Source: Ignavibacteriales bacterium (lineage in GTDB: Bacteria; Bacteroidota; Ignavibacteria; Ignavibacteriales; DAOSCP01). Taken from it: 64,000 nucleotides of DNA. The stretch is taken from the NCBI GenBank assembly GCA_035361425.1, contig DAOSCP010000016.1, positions 4,439 to 68,438 on the forward strand, given 5' to 3'. A program made the translations under genes and the position numbers. The notes beneath the pieces are model-generated. The model was not told where the DNA came from. It was given only the letters and a program-made list of their open reading frames with translations, and did no database searches. Each line of letters starts with the position of its first letter. The stretch's first letter is position 1. Of this stretch, positions 1 to 44,506 are shown one piece after another.

Positions 1-531
1 TTATTCATATTTAATTTTATTAAGTTTCTTAAATAGGCAAGTAAATGTTTTACATATGTGTAATTAATTTTATCTTTTAGTTTTTCATCTTTTGATGCAG
101 TATTAATGAATTCATCAAATAATGTTTTCAGTTCTGATTTTTCATAGTTATTAAATCTGTTTGCAAGTATTTCTCTAAATTTTTTTGATTTTGTATTATA
201 TGCACTGATATGTTCCATAAATCTTTCATTCTGATTATTATAGAAATTTTCCAATTTATCTTTTGAGCGACCTTTAACTTTTCATCAACATTTTTTATAA
301 AACTATCAACATTTTCGGAACATAAAAGAATATTTGAAAGTCTTGATATCAAACTAGTTCCAATGTTTTCTTCTTTTAGATTAAAATATTGTAGATTTTC
401 AAGTGCTTCTTTTTTGATAAAATTAAATAACTCTTCTTTTATATGGTTAAAATAAATATTTTTATAAAGTTTAGGAAATTTTTGTGATGGTTTTATAGTT
501 TTATTTAATACACTTTCTTTGTATTCCTCAT
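1..531 (-). pseudogene. putative cas11-like small helical subunit of the type III-D-like operon (frameshifted; 3' end runs off the window)
   Basis: The ATG at 531-529 overlaps the csx10 TGA (ATGA). The K/E-rich ORF (..LENLQYFNLKEENIGTSLISRLSNILL.. then ..DKLENFYNNQNERFMEHISAYNTKSKKFREILANRF..YTYVKHLLAYLRNLIKL) is continuous only after a 1-nt shift right after the ATG and another at the T4 run 261-264. The assignment rests on size, composition and position after csx10; there is no diagnostic motif. Confidence 0.3.
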
Positions 532-1528
532 TGGTTTGTATAAAAAAATTTTACTTTACCAAAACCTTCGTTTAATCTTTCTCTTATACCTTTATCTTCC
601 AATTCTTTGTAATTTGCAGGTAATTTATTAAGTAATAAGCAACTACCTGCTTTTATTATAATTTCAGATGGCTTTTTCATTTTCCAGATAGCTATAGAAT
701 TAACAATTGTATCAGTGCGACAAAACATATTTTTTATTGTTATACAGTTTAAATATCTTTCTATCGTATTTTTATCAGTAGAAGATAATCCATTAGCATT
801 GTAAAAAATTGCATCACTGGTAAATGTGCAAATAATATATTCAGCATCATTAATGCTATCAGTTTGAGTTTTTATTTCTTCAACTTCATTATCATTAAGG
901 AATGTAACTTCAATTCGTCCATATTCTGTGTTGTTGGAACGACCTATTCTTATTACATTATTTTTTCAAAAAGCTCACAGAAAATATTTTTGGTTTCATC
1001 GTTCGAAATCGTAACAGGTCTAATAAATTCCTGATTAGCCTATAAAGCTTCATAGTTAAAAATTAATTTATTTTTATTGGGTTTATTTTCTTTTATAGGT
1101 TGGTTAGAATGATGAAAATGGATTTTCGACTCTGGTGAAAATTCATAAATATAACTTTCTTCGTCTTTATGATCAATAAATATATCATTTCTGTTGTATG
1201 ATGTAATTTTATCCTTTAATTGTTGAGTTAATATATCATATGCAATTTTATTATCCTTTTAGCCTTTTATTTTTTGAAATGAAAAAGGTTTAGGAATTGT
1301 TATTAAATATTTATTTTTATTACCAATAACTGTTATATATGCATTGGGAAAATAAACATTTTCAAGATGTTGTAAAGGTAGATTATTTTTAACTAATAAA
1401 TTTGCAAAAACACCATAAAGTGCAGTTGAGTTGATGTAATCTTTTGTATATGTGAGTAAATTACTACATTTTTTCTGTGTAACAATTACTGGGTCAAGAA
1501 GTTTTAGTTTTAAATATAACTTATCCAT
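528..1528 (-). pseudogene. csx10: Csx10-family RAMP (Cas5 group, type III-D), pseudogene
   Basis: Hand translation gives MDKLYLKLKLLDPVIV..TKDYINSTALYGVFANLL..VYFPNAY..IPKPFSFQK..LIFNYEAL*ANQEF..IRIGRSNNTEYGRIEV..KKPSEIIIKAGSCLLL..LEDKGIRERLNEGFGKVKF. This fits the Csx10 pattern: a YEALxxxQxF box, GRSxxxEYG, and a terminal G-x-x-E-R-x-N-E-G-F-G glycine loop. It is broken by TAA 1261-1259, TAG 1042-1040 and a 1-nt frameshift in the T6 run 961-966. Confidence 0.75.
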
Positions 1529-2230
1529 TTAAATTCTCCTCATAATATTTAATTGCATTTGAAACAATATTTTGATTATTTTCATCATACAATTCAATTT
1601 TAATGGTTCCAAAACCTCTGTTTTTGTTTGTGCCTAATTTATTTTTATAAGTACAGGTTAAAGCAAATTCATTAATATAATTAGGGTTGATGTTTAACTC
1701 TCCAATAAAAACATGAGCTTTTTTAAGTAATCTTAAAATCCTTAAAGGTTTATCCTTTGTTATTCGGTATTCTTCTTCCATTGAAGTTTGTTTTCTAATA
1801 GTAGTAAAATAATCCATAGTATAATGGAATGGTATAGCAAATTGATTTTGTTGTAACAGTTTAACAGTTTCATGATAACCTTGAATATAAAAATTACTTA
1901 AGGTTAAATTTCCGCTTTCCCAATTACCTTTATTGCCAATAGTTTCATTGAGATACATTTAAATGTTGGGTTTAAATTATTAGTACTAATAATATTATCT
2001 AATTCTTCAGCTGTTTCTCTTAAAATTCCTCTAATTCTTTTGGCGGGTAAGTAGGGTATTCCATATTCGTCAAAAACAATATCTACATCTACATAAGAAG
2101 TAAAGGATTCGCCAGATCCAGGTAAAGTATCACTAATTTTCCTGAATTCTTCAGCATAATCTAATTTTGATTTGATAGTTGAAGAAATGAATTCTAAATC
2201 TTCAGGTGAGTGGTATTCAACCTCTGCACT
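1521..2230 (-). pseudogene. cas7: Cas7-like RAMP (Csm3 group), frameshifted, with its 5' end fused to the cas10 stub
   Basis: It carries a RAMP N-terminal box (VDVDIVFDEYGIPYLPAKRIRGILRETAEEL), then ..GNLTLSNFY.., and a C-terminal glycine loop (LGTNKNRGFGTIKIEL). A 1-nt frameshift at 1958-1963 joins ORFs 1904-2314 and 1521-1958. The stop overlaps the csx10 start (ATGGATAA). No start codon of its own is recognisable, and the 5' boundary is approximate. Confidence 0.65.
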
Positions 2231-2671
2231 AAATTCTGATCTATCGCAAACCATCGAAAAGCCGTAAGATTGTAAAACAGTATTAGGTATATACATATTT
2301 TTAGATAAGTGCAACTAATAGAAAGTTTTTTGCATTGATTCTTTAAAGTTTTTCTTACTTGTATCAAAGTTTTCATTTATTCCGCCTGCAATTTTAACAC
2401 CTGGATATTTGTATAATGTTTCTAGAGTAAAATTTTGGATTGCTTTGAGAGCATTATCCTTAGTGTCAAAAAAAATAAGGCATTACCACCGCTAATAAAA
2501 TACTCTGGTAGTATCCCATCCAATTTCTTTAAATTATTATTTTCATCAAGAAAATAATTAAAAATGTTTTCGATGATATACGATGCAAGATTTTCTTTTA
2601 ATGAGTTAGAACTAAAAATATAATCCTAGATAGACACAGTATCAAATAATACTGCTACATAGATACCTCGA
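2231..2671 (-). pseudogene. cas10: cas10 remnant (Palm1-like segment only)
   Basis: The minus-strand translation is GIYVAVLFDTVSI*DYIFSSNSLKENLASYIIENIFNYFL..LPEYFISGGNALFF(F)DTKDNALKAIQNF..PGVKIAGGINENF..ESMQKTFY*LHLSKN. From memory this parallels the Csm1/Cas10 Palm1 stretch (FDLSGIQDFIY..LYVGGGHAYFVL..). It has no HD domain, no GGDD Palm2 and no start codon, and it begins 1 nt after the CARF gene stop. It is broken by TAG 2628-2626, a frameshift in the A8 run 2468-2475, and TAG 2317-2315. Confidence 0.45.
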
Positions 2672-4034
2672 TTAAATGTTAAGTAATTTTTTTATTTCTA
2701 ATTTGAAACTTTCTTTATCATCAAATATATTATGATTAAAATTTATGAAATAATTTATATTACTACCAAAATCTTTTTGAATTTCTTGTTCTATTTCTGT
2801 AATTTTTTCTTGTGCAATAAATGATTTAAGTATCACTTTTGCTTCATCCCCAGAAAATTGTTGAGTCCTATGTATAACTTCAGAGAATTTGGATTTTATA
2901 ACTGGTTTTTCATCACAAATTGTACAACTTAAACCAAATATATTAAAGTTGTGCTGTATTATAAAATCTAACTCAAAATTATTATTAGGATTACTTTCTG
3001 AAATAAATTTAATATTTCTATGTAAATTAATTTTGATTCCTTCTTGCTTTAATTTATCTGTTATCTTTTGTAAGTATTCAAATAAGTAATCTTCAAACCA
3101 AAATCCAGTTAGATATTTTAAGTTTTTAAATATCCTTTTTTTCTTATTTTTACTGATACATTTATCTAAATTATTTTCATTGATGAATTTTATATCATCA
3201 GGTAAAAATTTAAAAATTTCAATATGCTTGTCATCCAGTTTTTTTTCATTAAAAATATAGTTATAGAGTTTTTCAGTTTCAACACAGCTATTGTTTTGTG
3301 GTAGTGTAGATTGAATATTATTATTGTTTAGCCCGATATTTATAAAATCAATTAGCAAATCAATAATTTTTTCATCATCGAATTTTACTTTAAAGTAATT
3401 TGTATAATCAAGAAATTCTCTTAATTTTTCTATCTTTTCATAATTATTAGTGCAATCAATTTCATTTTTTTCTAATAATTTTTTTTTGCAAAAGAAAAAA
3501 CTTTTTCTGCAAAATTTTTGTCAACCTCAACATTTTCAAATTGTTGAATATTATAAAGGTGCAGATTGGCAATTTTTTCCAGTGTTATACTATCATTGTG
3601 ATAACTAATACTTTCTTTTTTACTATCATTTATATAGATACAGTTAGTTTTAGCATCATAATAAGAACTTTCAAAATTAATATTATTTTTTTTGCACAGA
3701 TTTTGTAAAGTTTTAAATGTATAAATAATTAAACTTTTTATTCCGCCGGTATAATTTAAGTGAATTGGTTCTGATTTATCAATTTATGTCATTAAATTTT
3801 CTAATTTAACTTCTATATCGTTTGCATACTGGATATTTTTAACTTGAATGATTTCAATATTATAGTTAAAAAAGTTTTGTAGCTTTTCAGCATATTTAAA
3901 TGTGCTCGAATGTGTATCAGAAGTATCACTACAAATAAGATAAATTTTTTTAGTGTTTTGAAATTAGAAATGAAATGAGAAAGGATAATGTAATTAGGGA
4001 GTGGACTTGTACCGATAATTTAAAATAAGTTCAT
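2672..4034 (-). pseudogene. CARF-domain / PD-(D/E)xK nuclease-fold effector, Card1/Can2-like (DUF1887-type), pseudogene
   Basis: The N-terminal half has a CARF-like signature (IIGTSPLPNY, KIYLICSDTS, PIHLNYTGGIKS). The C-terminal half has a restriction-endonuclease-like core (TGFWFEDYLFEYL..NFELDFIIQHN..GLSCT). The start is ATG 4034. It is broken by TAA 4022-4020, a frameshift in T7 3945-3951, TAA 3786-3784 and a frameshift in T9 3479-3487. The last 228 codons (ORF 2672-3358) are intact. Confidence 0.7.
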
Positions 4035-4209
4035 ACTATTACCTCATGGATTTTTAAAAACTCAATTTATTAAAAATAATTTTTAATATCAAGTTAAATT
4101 TATATAATTATATAAAATAACATAAATGCTAATAAATAAAATTTTATTTACATTATGAATTGTATTAAAATTTTCTTATTTTTATAAATAAATTATTTTA
4201 GGAGTTACA

Positions 4210-5532
4210 ATGTTAAAAATATTATCCTTATTACTTTTTAGTATGATTACCTTTTCTCAAAATTCAACTAAATTAACCATTTATAATCAATATGCTTTGG
4301 TTAATGAAAATTTTACAATATCTCTTAAAGATGGTGTTAATGAATATTTTTATTATAACATACCATCTAATTTTAACCTTGATTTTATTTATCTTTCACT
4401 TGATGCAAAAATATTAAATCAATCTATTGTTATACCTCCATTTCAGTTAAACAAAATATTAGAAAATCAAGAAGTTGACTTAATTCATAAGGATGGAAAT
4501 CTTATAAACGGTAAAATTGTCAAGTTCGAAAATAGTGCAGCTGTTTTATCAGATAAAAATAACAATTTAATGATAATTCCTAATATTAATGATTATCAAA
4601 TAAAAACTAATGTAAAATATAACGAAAAACAATTTAAACCTTACATTAAATGGGAAATTGAAGCAAAAAAAGGTGAATATCCAGCTAATTTAACTTATCG
4701 TGTTAATGGTATCAGCTGGAATGCAGATTACATTCTTATCATAAACAAAAATAAAGCCAATATCAAATCATTTTATACCATTAATAATAATACAGATATT
4801 GAATATAATAATATGGATGTAAAATTTGTATCCGGTGAGATTCAAAATGTGTTTAATCAACGTCGTATGACTAGAACTATGTCAAGGTCAAGTATCGAAA
4901 AAAGTGTTTCCGATGATGATGATATGGTTCAAGAAAATTTGAATGAGTATAAAATCTATACTTATAACAAAAAAGTGAATTTACCTTCAAATTCATCTAA
5001 ACAATATGAATACTTTTCTGCAGAAGATATTAATATTCAAAAAATATTGTATTTTGAAACATCACAATATAACGAGTTAAGAAATGAAAAACCATTTATT
5101 CAATATAAAATAAAAAATGATAAATCAAATAAACTTGGTTATGCTTTACCCACTGGAAAATTTATGACTTATGAAAATTTAAATGATGAATTAATCTTTA
5201 CAGGAGAAGATATTATTAAAGATATTCCAATAGGCGATGATATTAATATAAAGATTGGTAAGGCCTTTGATGTTTTAATATCGCAAAATATTATGTCAAA
5301 CAATGCTATTAGTGATAAAATCAGTGATATTGAGACGGCGATAAAAATAAAAAATACAGCAAGTGAAGAAAAATATCTGGAAATAGTTAATAATCTTTAT
5401 AGTAATTATGAAATATTAAAGACAACTGATGAATATGAAAAATTATCATCCAATAAAATAAAATTTTCTTTTAAAATGAAGCCAAATTCCGAAAAAACTA
5501 TTATATTAAAAGTTAGATTTAAAAATTTCTAA
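4210..5532 (+). CDS. DUF4139-family secreted protein (MuiA-like)
   Basis: 440-aa ORF with an RBS (aggag) 7 nt upstream and an N-terminal signal peptide. The pattern TIYNQ.ALV.E..L..G.N resembles DUF4139 proteins as I recall them. Confidence 0.55.
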   Translation: MLKILSLLLFSMITFSQNSTKLTIYNQYALVNENFTISLKDGVNEYFYYNIPSNFNLDFIYLSLDAKILNQSIVIPPFQLNKILENQEVDLIHKDGNLINGKIVKFENSAAVLSDKNNNLMIIPNINDYQIKTNVKYNEKQFKPYIKWEIEAKKGEYPANLTYRVNGISWNADYILIINKNKANIKSFYTINNNTDIEYNNMDVKFVSGEIQNVFNQRRMTRTMSRSSIEKSVSDDDDMVQENLNEYKIYTYNKKVNLPSNSSKQYEYFSAEDINIQKILYFETSQYNELRNEKPFIQYKIKNDKSNKLGYALPTGKFMTYENLNDELIFTGEDIIKDIPIGDDINIKIGKAFDVLISQNIMSNNAISDKISDIETAIKIKNTASEEKYLEIVNNLYSNYEILKTTDEYEKLSSNKIKFSFKMKPNSEKTIILKVRFKNF

Positions 5533-5543
5533 AGGGGTTATAA

Positions 5544-5873
5544 ATGCAAAAAAAAGATAATGTTCAACAAATTAATATTGAGATAAGCGAACCAGAAGCA
5601 CAAGGAATTTATTCTAATCTGGCTCTTATAACATTCAATTTACCAGATTTTATAATTGATTTTATAAAAATATTACCTGGAGTGCCAAAAACTAAGGTTG
5701 CATCAAGGATTATTATGTCACCTCAGCATGCAAAACTTTTGATGTATGCATTAAAAAATAATATTCAGCAATACGAAGAAATGTATGGGGAAATTAAAAT
5801 TCACGATCCACAAAATCCATTCCCAAATTTTGGTATTGTCCCAGAGCAAAAAGATGATGAAGTTATAAATTAA
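5544..5873 (+). CDS. DUF3467-family small protein
   Basis: 109-aa ORF, 11 nt after the previous gene, with RBS aagggg. GIYSNLALITFNLPDFIIDF resembles the conserved Y.N......EF.lDF core of DUF3467. Confidence 0.55.
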   Translation: MQKKDNVQQINIEISEPEAQGIYSNLALITFNLPDFIIDFIKILPGVPKTKVASRIIMSPQHAKLLMYALKNNIQQYEEMYGEIKIHDPQNPFPNFGIVPEQKDDEVIN

Positions 5874-6330
5874 TTCCAATCTGTAATTTTACCGATTTCA
5901 TTTTTGGGGAGTTTCTCCCCAAATTTTATATTTGTTATTTTTTTGTGTGCAGGAAATTTATTAATAAAATTTGTTATTTTTTGAAGTGTATTGGTTGTTA
6001 AATCAGTTGGTATTATAAAACTTTTCAATCGTGTGCCTGTGGTGGTTTCATAGGTTCTAACAATACAGTCTTTAACTAATTGATAGGATTTTATTTTTTC
6101 TTCGATTTCATTTAAGTAAGTATTAATTCCTCCTATTGATACAGAATTATCTTTTCTTTTCAATGGGATAAAGCAGGAAATTATAACATTCTTTCATTCT
6201 TTCGATTAACGGAAGATCAATTTCATCATAAAAGTTATTGTTAAGAAAAAGCTGTTCAATATCGCTAATACCATAATATTTATTTTCTATAACCAATGAG
6301 TTTTCGTTTTTATTATTATATCATTTATTA
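5870..6330 (-). pseudogene. 3' remnant of an adenylate-forming (AMP-binding / CoA-ligase-like) enzyme
   Basis: ORF 5870-6163 shows only the C-terminal subdomain pattern (KDNSVSIGGINTYLNEIEE..VKDCIV....KSFII..KFGEKLPKNEIGKI). The upstream ~55 codons are readable only in another frame. The ~400-aa N-terminal adenylation core is absent. Confidence 0.5.
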
Positions 6331-11291: not shown

Positions 11292-12020
11292 AACAATAAT
11301 GATTATGTATTATATATTAAAGGAAATAAAAAACATACTGATGAATATTATTGAAAAGCATTAATAAAACTGAACAACAAAAGTTTCTAGAAAATTATCC
11401 TCTTGATGAACTTAAACTTGATGTGAATAAAAAATATACTATGGCAGATATCGCTTGTGGATATGGAACATGCACTTGTAATTTGAACAATATATTTAAA
11501 GTTTCTAATTTTATTTGACTTAAACGATGATGCTAGTGAAAATGCGAAAAAATAATACTGATATAGATGCTCAATATTTTGTTGAAAGTTGTTATGATAT
11601 GAAATCTATTAGTGATAACTCGGGTTACCTGGCTTTTTGTTTGCAAACTTTGGCGTGGATAAATCAACCAGATTTGTGCATTAAAGAAATGGTTCGTATT
11701 ATAAAGCCTGGTGGGCATATTTTTATTACAAGTTTGTTTAATCTTGACTATGACTGTGATCTAATTGTAAAAGTTAGAGATTATACAAAAGATAAAGATT
11801 CTTCCATTAATTAAAATACATAATGCGAGTTTACCATAAAATCGCGGTTCGAAAATTTAAGCATTAAAAATTATAATTTGAAAAAATTTGAAATAGGAAT
11901 CGATTTACCTAAACAACTCGAGGATTAGGGACACACACTGTTAAAACAGAAAAAGGAGAACTTTTACAAATATCCGGTGGTTATTTGATGAATTGGGGAT
12001 TGCTTCATATTATCAAATAA
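11292..12020 (+). pseudogene. class I SAM-dependent methyltransferase, heavily disrupted
   Basis: The SAM-binding motif MADIACGYGTC, then FDLNDDASENAKK and RIIKPGGHIFITS, lie in three different frames. There are several stops (e.g. TGA after ..TDEYY, TGA after ..VSNFI) and a shift in an A-run. The tail ..GTHTVKTEKGELLQISGGYLMNWGLLHIIK ends at 12020. Confidence 0.65.
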
Positions 12021-42243: not shown

Positions 42244-42808
42244 GTTCTTTAAAACTGGTTTTAAAGAACGCAAAAGGTATTTGTGTTTTGTTTAAAGAAC
42301 TCAAAGGCCTTTGTGTTCTGTTTAAAGAACACAAAGGTGGTTTATGTTCTGTTTAAAGAACGCAAATTAAATAATATTTATTAAAGCAAAATTTATTAAA
42401 AAAAATTAGTTATTGAGTTCATTCTGGTTTATACATAATTAAGTATTGTTTTTTAAAGAATTGTTTTAAAAACACAAAAATTTATCATAATTTTTCAAAA
42501 AGCCAATTATTTATTGCTCTTTAATCCATAATTTAAAGTATAAATAACTTCTTCTTATTATAATGCATTTCGGATTGTATTATTCGTTTTATAAATTTAT
42601 AGTATAGATATTACTCCTTACTATTTTAGAAAATTCAATAAAATCTATATTAAAGTTAGGATAAGATAATGGGAATTATGTTCTATTTAAAGAACACAAT
42701 AAACTTAGTGTTCTTTAAAAAGCCAAATTAAGAACAAAAAAAATTGCAACATAATAAAAATTTATTATATTGTTTTGTGTTCTTAAAATGGTTATTTAAA
42801 GAACATAA
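42244..42808. repeat. left array of degenerate palindromic repeats (half-sites TGTTCT / AGAACA, spacing 6 or 16 bp)
   Basis: N16 copies start at 42244 and 42778. N6 copies start at 42284, 42314 and 42345. A 61-bp composite module (N6 copy, 12-nt gap, N16 copy) spans 42676-42736. Degenerate traces lie around 42445-42480. Confidence 0.85.
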
Positions 42809-44068: not shown

Positions 44069-44198
44069 TGCATTTTGATATTTTGTAATATGATAATTTT
44101 AAATAATTTTTTAAGTGAAAAATTTAATTATAAATTTCTTATCATTTTATTTTTTTATCATTGAATCTTTGCAAATTATTGTCAAGTAGGGTAAAAAA

Positions 44199-44506
44199 TG
44201 TTCTTTAAAGTTGAGTTTAAAGAATATAACCTAGTTTATGTTCTTTTTAAAGAACACAAATTCAATAATGTTCTTTAAAACACGATTTAAAGAACAAAAT
44301 AGGCTTTTAAGTTAATTAAAAGAACTCAAAATCAAAGTTTAGTTTATGTTCTTTTTAAAGAACACAAAGGCAGCTTATGTTCTCTTTAAAGAACGCAAAT
44401 TATTTAGCGTTCTTTAAATCTCGATTTAAAGAACAAAATAAAGTATTATGTTCTATTTGAGGAACACAAATTACATAGTGTTCCTTGAAAAACGATTATT
44501 AGAACA
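44199..44506. repeat. right array of the same palindromic repeat family
   Basis: 61-bp composite modules span 44236-44296, 44375-44435 and 44446-44506. Extra copies start at 44199 (N16), ~44301 (degenerate) and 44345 (N6). They have the same orientation as the left-array module. Confidence 0.85.

What the first reader, a model, noticed from the sequence alone, without database searches (positions are those of the whole stretch)
2140..2675. cas10 reduced to a ~140-codon Palm1 stub joined to the CARF gene stop and to a cas7 body
The only Cas10-like sequence is the Palm1 stretch (FDTVSI*DYIF..YFISGGNALFFFDTKDNALKAIQNF..GVKIAGGI..), followed by a trace of the region that normally leads into the zinc finger (..FSMVCDRSEF). 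It begins 1 nt after the TAA of the CARF gene, with no start codon and no HD or N-terminal region. It runs in frame through TAG 2317-2315 into a RAMP whose own N-terminus and start codon are missing. The cyclase Palm2 (GGDD) and the C-terminal domain are absent entirely. This looks like two deletions, one 5' and one internal, that created a cas10-cas7 chimera. The locus therefore could not make cyclic oligoadenylate even before the point mutations accumulated, yet it keeps a CARF sensor gene next door.
Basis: partly seen in the sequence, partly recalled or inferred. Interest (0 to 1): 0.6.

Follow-up and report, generated by a model that had tools for sequence, protein, structure and literature searches.

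The report
Dead cas10–cas7 deletion fusion pseudogene
This is a dead remnant of a type III-D CRISPR defence locus in an uncultured Ignavibacteriales bacterium, in which a deletion of about 1 kb removed the catalytic half of cas10 and welded the rest to cas7; it is ordinary gene decay, not a new kind of effector.

Summary

**What is there**
- Window 2660-2135 (minus strand) is the first ~178 codons of a compact ~490-aa Cas10 that has no HD domain.
- The closest intact relative is P0002, at 63-65% identity. A profile of that family aligns end to end with the Synechocystis type III-Dv Cas10 (PDB 8S9T, E=1e-52).
- A ~0.98-0.99 kb deletion removed Palm2/GGDD, the C-terminal domain, the intergenic spacer and about 10 cas7 codons. 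It joined the two genes in frame at about 2140-2134.

- There is no 5' deletion. The family natively starts here.
- The GAGG ribosome-binding site and the ATG (2660-2658) survive, followed by a 1-nt deletion.

**Evidence of decay**
- The stub also carries two TAG stops, loss of an invariant Gly codon and a T-run frameshift.
- Every neighbouring cas gene is broken, including the Can2/Card1-type CARF nuclease.
- The stretch is 100% identical in 10 independent assemblies.
- A sister strain shares the junction but has CAG where the window has TAG 2317-2315.
- A search of 1.84 billion proteins found no conserved Palm-Cas7 fusion.

This is ordinary pseudogenisation, of low interest.

The parts
2672..4034 (-). 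Pseudogene of a Can2/Card1-family CARF nuclease. ATG 4034-4032; in-frame TAA at 4022-4020 and 3786-3784; two frameshifts (near 3945 and 3450-3510); terminal TAA 2674-2672.
   Evidence: Three-frame translation. tblastn of the 520-aa L001 orthologue is split over three frames. Homologues carry PF23400 CARF_Card1 and PF09002. The L001 orthologue matches Can2 structures 8Q3Y/8Q44 with E=1e-36.
2658..2669 (-). Native translation start of cas10: GAGG (2669-2666), then ATG (2660-2658), immediately followed by a 1-nt deletion (ATG GTA -> ATG TA).
   Evidence: DNA alignment with L001 2783 onward. Family N-termini.
2135..2660 (-). cas10 remnant, codons 1 to ~178 of ~490: Palm1 plus the linker with the single conserved Cys. 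Lesions: TAG 2628-2626 (Gln12 position), 3-nt deletion near 2587 (invariant Gly26), Gly61->Ser, 1-nt loss in the T8 run 2475-2468, TAG 2317-2315 (Gln position).
   Evidence: The P0002 model shows a beta-alpha-beta-beta-alpha-beta fold for residues 1-126. Its best fold matches are III-Dv Cas10 8S9T/8S9X.
2134..2140 (-). Deletion junction: ...GAA TTC AGG AAA | ATT AGT GAT ACT... It joins cas10 codon ~177-178 to cas7 codon ~10-12, with ~980-990 bp missing relative to L001. Both parental sites in L001 read AAA-(C/T)TA, so microhomology is possible.
   Evidence: (P0002 matches query 2-62, P0001 matches query 57-126).
1521..2134 (-). cas7 (RAMP) remnant lacking its first ~10 codons and start codon. 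One frameshift near 1960-1945; stop at 1523-1521.
   Evidence: Pfam RAMPs E=2e-9, profile positions 6-189 of 189. 61% identity to the 217-aa Cas7 P0001. Split over two frames.
1..1528 (-). Pseudogene of csx10 (cas5) with a helical C-terminal extension (514 aa in L001). ATG 1528-1526; TAA 1261-1259; TAG 1042-1040; at least three frameshifts. It runs to the window edge.
   Evidence: NCBIfam TIGR02674 Csx10, E=2.7e-11, below cut-off. tblastn is split over four segments. The L001 orthologue matches the Cas5 part of III-Dv Cas7-Cas5-Cas11, 8S9T_A, E=2.5e-6.

Best explanation
Window ~4034-1 (minus strand) is part of a dead type III-D-like CRISPR-Cas effector operon in an Ignavibacteriales MAG lineage. 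The operon continues 4.4 kb beyond the window edge.

**Ancestral state (inferred from intact relatives).** The gene order was can2/card1, cas10 (~490 aa, no HD, Palm1-linker-Palm2 GGDD-helical domain), cas7, csx10(cas5)+helical domain, cas7-2x, csx19, cas7-insertion. It would have worked as a type III system does. The crRNA-guided complex binds target RNA. Cas10 Palm2 then makes a cyclic oligoadenylate, probably cA4, which activates the Can2 nuclease.

**What happened in this lineage.**
- A single ~0.98-0.99 kb deletion removed cas10 codons ~179-491, the stop codon, the 14-nt spacer and cas7 codons 1 to ~10. It may have occurred between short AAA-YTA repeats. It joined the two genes codon to codon.
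- Separately, the stub acquired a 1-nt deletion right after its ATG, two CAG/CAA->TAG stops, loss of an invariant Gly codon and a homopolymer frameshift.
- All other cas genes acquired stops and frameshifts.

No functional Cas10, Cas7 or Can2 can be made. The fusion is a by-product of decay, not an effector.

**Shown:** homology, the junction, the lesions, their presence in independent assemblies, and the order of the deletion relative to TAG 2317-2315.
**Inferred:** the ancestral signalling chemistry, the microhomology mechanism, and non-expression.
For: - Homology of the stub and Cas7 to separate genes on one intact contig (P0002 491 aa and P0001 217 aa on L001).
- Codon-level DNA alignment showing the junction and each lesion.
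- P0002 is a Cas10. Pfam Cas10-Cmr2_palm2 E=1e-13 at residues 210-352. phmmer to 8S9T_C gives E=4e-28. The family profile against 8S9T_C gives E=1e-52, end to end. The AF2 model has pTM 0.75 and its best Foldseek hits are 8S9X/8S9T, TM 0.68-0.71.
- The same gene order, with full-length cas10 and a separate cas7, occurs in Desulfobacterales, UASB270, Haliscomenobacter and Chitinophagales loci.
- An exhaustive search with the junction ORF found only the window's own product spanning the junction. All Cas7 hits begin at their own N-terminus.
- The 6 kb is 100% identical in 10 independent assemblies.
- Sister strain L019 (99.6% identity) shares the junction and the other stub lesions but has CAG at 2317-2315.
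- The rest of the window holds 34 intact ORFs of at least 200 aa that use TAA, TGA and TAG as stops.
- No CRISPR array was found in the window or in the extension.
Against: - The stub alone gives no significant Cas10 HMM or PDB hit, so its identity is transitive through P0002.
- The nearest intact relative is only ~70% identical in DNA. The exact breakpoints (+/- 2 codons) and the microhomology therefore cannot be fixed.
- The order of the deletion relative to the other four stub lesions is unknown.
- The fusion is in frame. That has a 1-in-3 chance, but it leaves room for a transiently expressed chimera.
- No expression data are available.
- Substitution density between the two strains is not higher in the cas remnant (35 differences in 8749 columns) than in the flanking genes (52 in 8303). 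That comparison gives no independent sign of relaxed constraint.
Confidence: 0.93

Rival explanations
1. One reading: two deletions, one 5' (removing the HD/N-terminal region and the start codon) and one internal.
For: The stub frame opens right after the CARF stop, and the ATG is out of frame with it. Many Cas10 proteins of other subtypes have an N-terminal HD domain; for example, Sso III-D Cas10 aligns only from residue 316.
Against: All seven full-length family members start at the same MxxVLxDTVSIQDYIF. The profile aligns from residue 21 of the HD-less III-Dv Cas10. The GAGG and ATG are conserved in position with L001, and only one nucleotide is missing.
Confidence: 0.03
2. A conserved or newly functional Palm-only/Cas7 fusion effector. 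This would need TAG read as Gln and frameshifting during translation.
For: The junction is in frame. Both TAGs sit at positions where relatives have Gln.
Against: No protein among 1.84 billion representatives spans the junction except the window's own ORF. There is a 1-nt deletion after the ATG, a homopolymer frameshift and a further frameshift inside cas7. TAG ends intact genes in the window. The sister strain simply has CAG at one site. Every other gene of the operon is broken, also with TAA stops.
Confidence: 0.01
3. A sequencing or assembly artefact: homopolymer errors, or a collapsed assembly producing an apparent deletion.
For: One lesion lies in a T8 run. The source is a metagenome-assembled genome.
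Against: Ten assemblies from ENA, JGI, NCBI and Logan samples are 100% identical over window 1-6000. A diverged sister strain carries the same junction and frameshifts. Flanking genes are intact.
Confidence: 0.01
4. The stub is a stand-alone minimal palm-domain protein (mCpol-like) that was never a full Cas10.
For: It is small and has only the Palm domain, and it sits next to a CARF gene.
Against: It is 63-65% identical to residues 1-178 of a full-length Cas10 in a syntenic locus. The similarity continues up to the junction, past the Palm1 domain into the linker.
Confidence: 0.01

Closest known systems
Cas10 of the Synechocystis sp. PCC 6803 type III-Dv effector complex (PDB 8S9T-8S9X; PMC11026444)
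   Same: The intact relatives of the stub are compact Cas10 proteins without an HD domain. They align end to end with this protein (E=1e-52; Foldseek TM 0.68-0.71) and keep GGDD. The locus also has csx10/cas5, a cas7-2x, csx19 and a cas7 with an insertion.
   Different: The window copy keeps only codons 1 to ~178 and is a pseudogene fused to cas7. In the intact relatives the first cas7 is a separate gene, not fused to cas5-cas11 as in III-Dv. The family is shorter (464-522 aa against 575 aa). It is associated with a Can2/Card1 nuclease.
Type III-D1 Cas10 (Saccharolobus SsoCsm, PDB 8BMW chain K)
   Same: The Palm1-Palm2 core is homologous (profile E=2e-10).
   Different: The Sso protein has ~315 extra N-terminal residues and is far more distant.
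Can2/Card1 cA4-activated CARF nucleases (PDB 8Q3Y-8Q44; bioRxiv 10.1101/2023.09.18.558242)
   Same: The gene upstream of cas10 belongs to this family. Its L001 orthologue matches with E=1e-36, and homologues carry PF23400 and PF09002.
   Different: The window copy is a pseudogene. The L001 orthologue is longer (520 aa) than typical members (~410-440 aa).
Type III-D2 (Cas7x3, Cas7-5, Cas10, CorA; makes SAM-AMP; PMC13294483)
   Same: It is another reduced type III-D derivative with a compact Cas10.
   Different: Here there is no Cas7x3, Cas7-5 or CorA. The ancillary gene is a CARF nuclease, which points to cyclic oligoadenylate rather than SAM-AMP signalling. This is an inference.

Membership tests
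Cas10 (type III large subunit), HD-less III-D/III-Dv-like clade | N-terminal Palm1 domain homologous to Cas10 Palm1 | tested here: met
   The stub is 63-65% identical to P0002 residues 1-178. The P0002 family profile aligns from its start with 8S9T Cas10. The model shows a beta-alpha-beta-beta-alpha-beta fold. The stub alone is not significant against Pfam, NCBIfam or PDB.
Cas10 (type III large subunit), HD-less III-D/III-Dv-like clade | Palm2 cyclase domain with the GGDD motif | tested here: not met
   Deleted in the window. Present in P0002-P0008: PF22335, with GDD invariant and the first G of GGDD present in six of seven.
Cas10 (type III large subunit), HD-less III-D/III-Dv-like clade | C-terminal helical (Cas11-like) domain | tested here: not met
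   Deleted. The tblastn match of P0002 stops at residue 180.
Cas10 (type III large subunit), HD-less III-D/III-Dv-like clade | Uninterrupted reading frame | tested here: not met
   A 1-nt deletion after the ATG, two TAG stops and one homopolymer frameshift.
Cas7 / RAMP (Csm3-Cmr4 like) | RAMP domain | tested here: met
   Pfam PF03787 E=2e-9, profile positions 6-189 of 189 on the stitched sequence. 61% identity to P0001.
Cas7 / RAMP (Csm3-Cmr4 like) | Own start codon and intact frame | tested here: not met
   The first ~10 codons are deleted and there is a frameshift near 1960-1945.
Type III-D / III-Dv CRISPR-Cas locus | Signature genes csx10 and csx19 with multiple or fused cas7 genes | tested here: met
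   Csx10 TIGR02674 E=2.7e-11, below the curated cut-off. The csx19 PF27799 assignment is precomputed, on the extension outside the window, and was not reproduced with the local Pfam copy. The cas7-2x has two RAMP stretches in L001. All copies in this lineage are fragmented except possibly csx19.
Type III-D / III-Dv CRISPR-Cas locus | Associated CRISPR array and crRNA processing gene | tested here: not met
   No array was found in the 64-kb window or in the 5.8-kb extension, which ends in 5S/23S rRNA. The rest of the genome could not be searched.
Can2/Card1 CARF nuclease | CARF_Card1 domain plus Card1/DUF1887 nuclease domain, in an intact frame | tested here: not met
   Family assignment is by homologues and PDB. 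The window copy has two stops and two frameshifts.
Conserved Palm-Cas7 fusion (hypothetical new effector) | The same fusion architecture, intact, in other genomes | tested here: not met
   Only the window's own ORF (P0121) spans the junction among 1.84 billion representatives. None was found among 5.8 billion clusters. Seven genome loci have separate genes.

The most novel reading that the evidence does not exclude
The most novel reading not excluded has two parts.
- The in-frame cas10(Palm1)-cas7 chimera was expressed for a time after the deletion. It could have acted, for example, as a dominant-negative subunit that hastened loss of the system, or as a cyclase-less RNA-binding backbone.
- The intact relatives (L001, L003, L005) may represent an uncharacterised III-D sub-variant lying between III-D1 and III-Dv. 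It would have a ~490-aa HD-less Cas10, a free Cas7, a Cas5+helical-domain fusion, Cas7-2x, Csx19 and Can2.

The window itself only documents its corpse.
Probability: 0.04. Interest if true: 0.45.

Novelty: new member of a known kind. Interest (0 to 1): 0.13.

Why it matters
It matters little beyond annotation.
- Automated pipelines call fragments of this locus as 'hypothetical proteins'. One example is the 130-aa junction ORF HOJ38397.1.
- The locus is a clean, datable example of a type III-D locus being discarded by a lineage. The catalytic half of cas10 was lost in one deletion. At least one nonsense mutation is demonstrably younger than that deletion.
- The case is a caution for naive sequence reading. 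Without comparison to relatives, a natively HD-less compact Cas10 looks 5'-truncated.
- The intact relatives point to a compact III-D variant coupled to Can2. That variant could be worth characterising, but it lies outside this window.

Tried and rejected
- **Domain scans of the stitched stub.** Pfam and NCBIfam found only the RAMP domain and no Cas10 hit. phmmer of the stub against PDB gave a spurious nucleoporin hit at E=0.008 and Cas10 at only E=0.23. Direct HMM detection therefore fails, and identity had to come through the close full-length relative.
- **Stitched chimera for the exhaustive search.** The exact junction ORF 2314-1907 was used instead.
- **Genome-contig scan with the Cas10 family.** It did not return the window's own genome. 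The organism was identified through exact-protein look-ups instead.
- **CRISPR array search.** Rfam, tRNA and TRF scans of the window found no array. A direct-repeat search of the extended locus and of L001 found none either. TRF on the relatives L002, L004 and L005 found no array within 10 kb.
- **Repeats at 42.2-44.5 kb.** These are short palindromic motif clusters, not CRISPR repeats.
- **Promoter and terminator scan.** It was uninformative in this AT-rich DNA: 42 sites found against 37 expected.
- **Strain-to-strain substitution density.** The cas remnant and the flanking genes show no excess either way.
- **TAG-to-Gln recoding.** Considered and rejected.
- **mCpol-like stand-alone palm protein.** Considered and rejected.
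Full report
**1. What is in the sequence**

On the minus strand, window ~4034 down to 1 shows no long open frame. It holds a chain of short ORFs in shifting frames. The rest of the window (4.2-64 kb) is packed with 34 intact ORFs of at least 200 aa, ending in TAA (26), TGA (5) or TAG (3). The genome is AT-rich, at 29% GC overall and 24% in this stretch.

I stitched the frames by eye. The result was:
- a CARF-like protein (4034-2672);
- the reported 'Cas10 stub' running into a RAMP (2660-1521);
- a Csx10-like protein (1528-1).

Pfam recognises only the RAMP part of the stub-RAMP chimera (E=2e-9, profile positions 6-189 of 189). NCBIfam gives a sub-threshold Csx10 hit.

**2. Identity of the stub**

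A search of 5.8 billion protein clusters with the stitched chimera returned two proteins from one 7.5-kb contig (L001, Logan SRR30574052):
- P0002, 491 aa, 63% identical to the first half of the query (E=1e-61);
- P0001, 217 aa, 61% identical to the second half (E=1e-80).

It also returned six more proteins of 464-522 aa, all carrying Pfam Cas10-Cmr2_palm2.

On L001 the genes are intact and separate. Their order is a 520-aa CARF protein, cas10 (2783-4258), cas7 (4273-4926), a 514-aa csx10-like gene, then a double-RAMP gene.

P0002 is a genuine Cas10:
- phmmer against the Synechocystis III-Dv Cas10 (8S9T_C) gives E=4e-28.
- The family profile aligns end to end with it (positions 7-508 against residues 21-568, E=1e-52).
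- An AlphaFold model (pLDDT 70.7, pTM 0.75) finds 8S9X/8S9T as its best structural matches, with TM 0.68-0.71.
- In the model, residues 1-126 form a beta-alpha-beta-beta-alpha-beta fold (Palm1). Residues 127-169 are a low-confidence linker around the one invariant Cys. Palm2 with GGDD spans ~192-370, and a helical domain follows.

PMC11026444 states that the III-Dv Cas10, like most III-D Cas10 proteins, lacks a functional HD domain and retains GGDD.

**3. The N-terminus is native**

All seven full-length family members begin M(0-4 residues)(A/T/G)V(L/I)xDT(V/M/I)SIQxYIF.

The DNA alignment shows L001 'GAGGTTTTTATGGTAGCAGTG' against the window 'GAGGTATCTAT-GTAGCAGTA'. The ribosome-binding site (2669-2666) and ATG (2660-2658) are in place, and one G has been lost right after the ATG. 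There is therefore no 5' deletion and no missing HD region.

**4. The internal deletion is real**

- blastn aligns window 2986-2163 to L001 2456-3288, and window 2134-536 to L001 4306-5899.
- At codon level, the window's ...KSKLDYAEEFRK matches P0002 ...KSKLLQADKFREK (to residue ~178). ISDTLPGSGESFTSY matches P0001 (K)LLSDTLPGSGDTFTSY (from residue ~10-12).
- Relative to L001, about 980-990 bp are missing. That covers cas10 codons ~179-491 (all of Palm2/GGDD and the helical domain), the stop codon, the 14-nt spacer and about 10 cas7 codons.
- The junction lies at window ~2140-2134 (AGG AAA | ATT AGT GAT) and joins codons in frame. ORF 2314-1904 spans it.
- Both parental sites in L001 read AAA-(C/T)TA. 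A microhomology-mediated deletion is therefore plausible, but it is unproven at ~70% DNA identity.

**5. Other lesions in the stub**

- TAG 2628-2626, at the invariant Gln12 of SIQDYIF.
- A 3-nt deletion near 2587, removing the invariant Gly26 of LGASY.
- Gly61 to Ser, in the invariant GGGN motif.
- Loss of one T in the run 2475-2468, which shifts the frame.
- TAG 2317-2315, where the relative has CAG.

The cas7 part has a further frameshift near 1960-1945.

**6. The whole operon is dead, not just cas10**

tblastn of the L001 proteins splits the window's genes as follows:
- the CARF gene over three frames, with TAA stops at 4022-4020 and 3786-3784;
- cas10 over two frames;
- cas7 over two frames;
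- csx10 over four segments, with TAA 1261-1259 and TAG 1042-1040.

The CARF gene belongs to the Can2/Card1 family. Its homologues carry PF23400 and PF09002 and are named 'DUF1887 family CARF protein' or 'Card1 endonuclease'. The L001 orthologue matches Can2 structures 8Q3Y-8Q44 with E=1e-36. So the 'retained CARF sensor' is also a pseudogene.

**7. The lesions are real and fixed in the population**

An exact-protein look-up of the neighbouring 440-aa gene found this locus in more than 20 contigs. Ten assemblies from ENA, JGI, NCBI MAGs and Logan are 100% identical to window 1-6000. NCBI names the organism 'Ignavibacteriales bacterium'.

Locus L017 extends 5.8 kb beyond window position 1. It holds a fragmented cas7-2x, a 154-aa csx19 ORF, a fragmented cas7 with an insertion, then 5S and 23S rRNA. 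No CRISPR array is present.

A sister strain (GCA_020049655.1, L019) is 99.6% identical. It shares the junction, the post-ATG deletion, TAG 2628-2626 and the T-run frameshift. It reads CAG (Gln) at 2317-2315, and its ORF there is 143 aa, 'MQKTFYQLHLSK...'.

**8. Is a Palm-Cas7 fusion a conserved architecture?**

No.
- The exact junction ORF was scored by phmmer against 1.84 billion representative proteins. Only the window's own product (P0121) spans the junction.
- P0002 matches query 2-62 only. Of the 150 best hits, all but those two match only the Cas7 part, and apart from one 4,318-aa multi-RAMP protein (P0122) each match begins within the first ~20 residues of the target.
- Seven loci from GTDB genomes (Haliscomenobacter, Chitinophagales, Desulfobacterales, Desulfobulbaceae, UASB270) show cas10 followed by a separate cas7. 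In four of them (L002-L005) cas10 is matched at full length; L006 has an internal gap, L007 is truncated and frameshifted, and L008 is cut by the contig end. A Can2-like gene often lies upstream.

**9. Rivals**

- Sequencing artefact: excluded by section 7.
- TAG-to-Gln recoding with frameshifting: excluded by the TAA stops and frameshifts throughout the operon, by TAG serving as a terminator of intact genes, and by the CAG/TAG polymorphism.
- A stand-alone mCpol-like palm protein: excluded by the colinear 63-65% identity to a full-length Cas10, which continues beyond Palm1 to the junction.

**10. Comparison with known systems**

The ancestral system is a type III-D relative, closest to III-Dv. 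It shares the HD-less compact Cas10, Csx10/Cas5, Cas7-2x, Csx19 and a Cas7 with an insertion. It differs in that its first Cas7 is a free gene rather than fused to Cas5-Cas11. It is coupled to a Can2-type nuclease.

By analogy with characterised type III systems and Can2 (bioRxiv 10.1101/2023.09.18.558242), it would have signalled with cA4. This is an inference and was not tested. III-D2 systems make SAM-AMP for CorA (PMC13294483), but neither CorA nor Cas7x3 is present here.

**11. Verdict**

There was one internal deletion that fused cas10 to cas7, and no 5' deletion. The feature is an ordinary, well-documented case of CRISPR-Cas pseudogenisation in an uncultured lineage. Interest is low.

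Noticed in passing
window 42260-42806 and 44198-44436: Two intergenic clusters of a palindromic motif (TGTTCTTTAAAGAACA-like). TTTAAAGAACAC occurs 16 times at up to 1 mismatch, against 1.25 expected. The spacing is about 31 nt with no spacers, so this is not a CRISPR array. The motifs may be arrays of operator sites.
   Followed up: partly
window 5870-6163 (-): A 97-aa ORF that consists only of an AMP-binding_C domain (PF13193, E=6e-5). No adenylation domain lies upstream. It is probably another gene remnant, two genes beyond the dead cas operon.
   Followed up: partly
window 11351-11518 and 11527-11814 (+): A SAM-dependent methyltransferase appears split into two ORFs. The second matches Methyltransf_11 positions 35-95 only, and the first carries a DIACGYG motif-I-like sequence. 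Gene calls differ between assemblies.
   Followed up: partly
L017 1-1393 (4.4-5.8 kb beyond window position 1): The cas remnant ends next to the 3' end of an rRNA operon: 23S positions 1764-2925, then 5S. Nearly all assemblies break there.
   Followed up: yes
L017 3889-4353 (outside the window): The csx19 ORF (154 aa) is the only gene of the operon that still looks uninterrupted. Its Pfam PF27799 assignment is precomputed and was not reproduced with the local Pfam copy.
   Followed up: partly
L007 10001-11259 (Haliscomenobacter sp. MAG JADJPL010000008.1): The cas10 homologue of the same family is split over two frames and lacks residues 1-58. This suggests an independent decay of this system in another lineage.
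   Followed up: no
L001 4919-6463 and window 1-1528: In this family, Csx10 (Cas5) carries a helical C-terminal extension of about 190 aa. It may be a fused Cas11, as in the III-Dv Cas7-Cas5-Cas11 protein. Only the Cas5 part matched 8S9T_A.
   Followed up: partly
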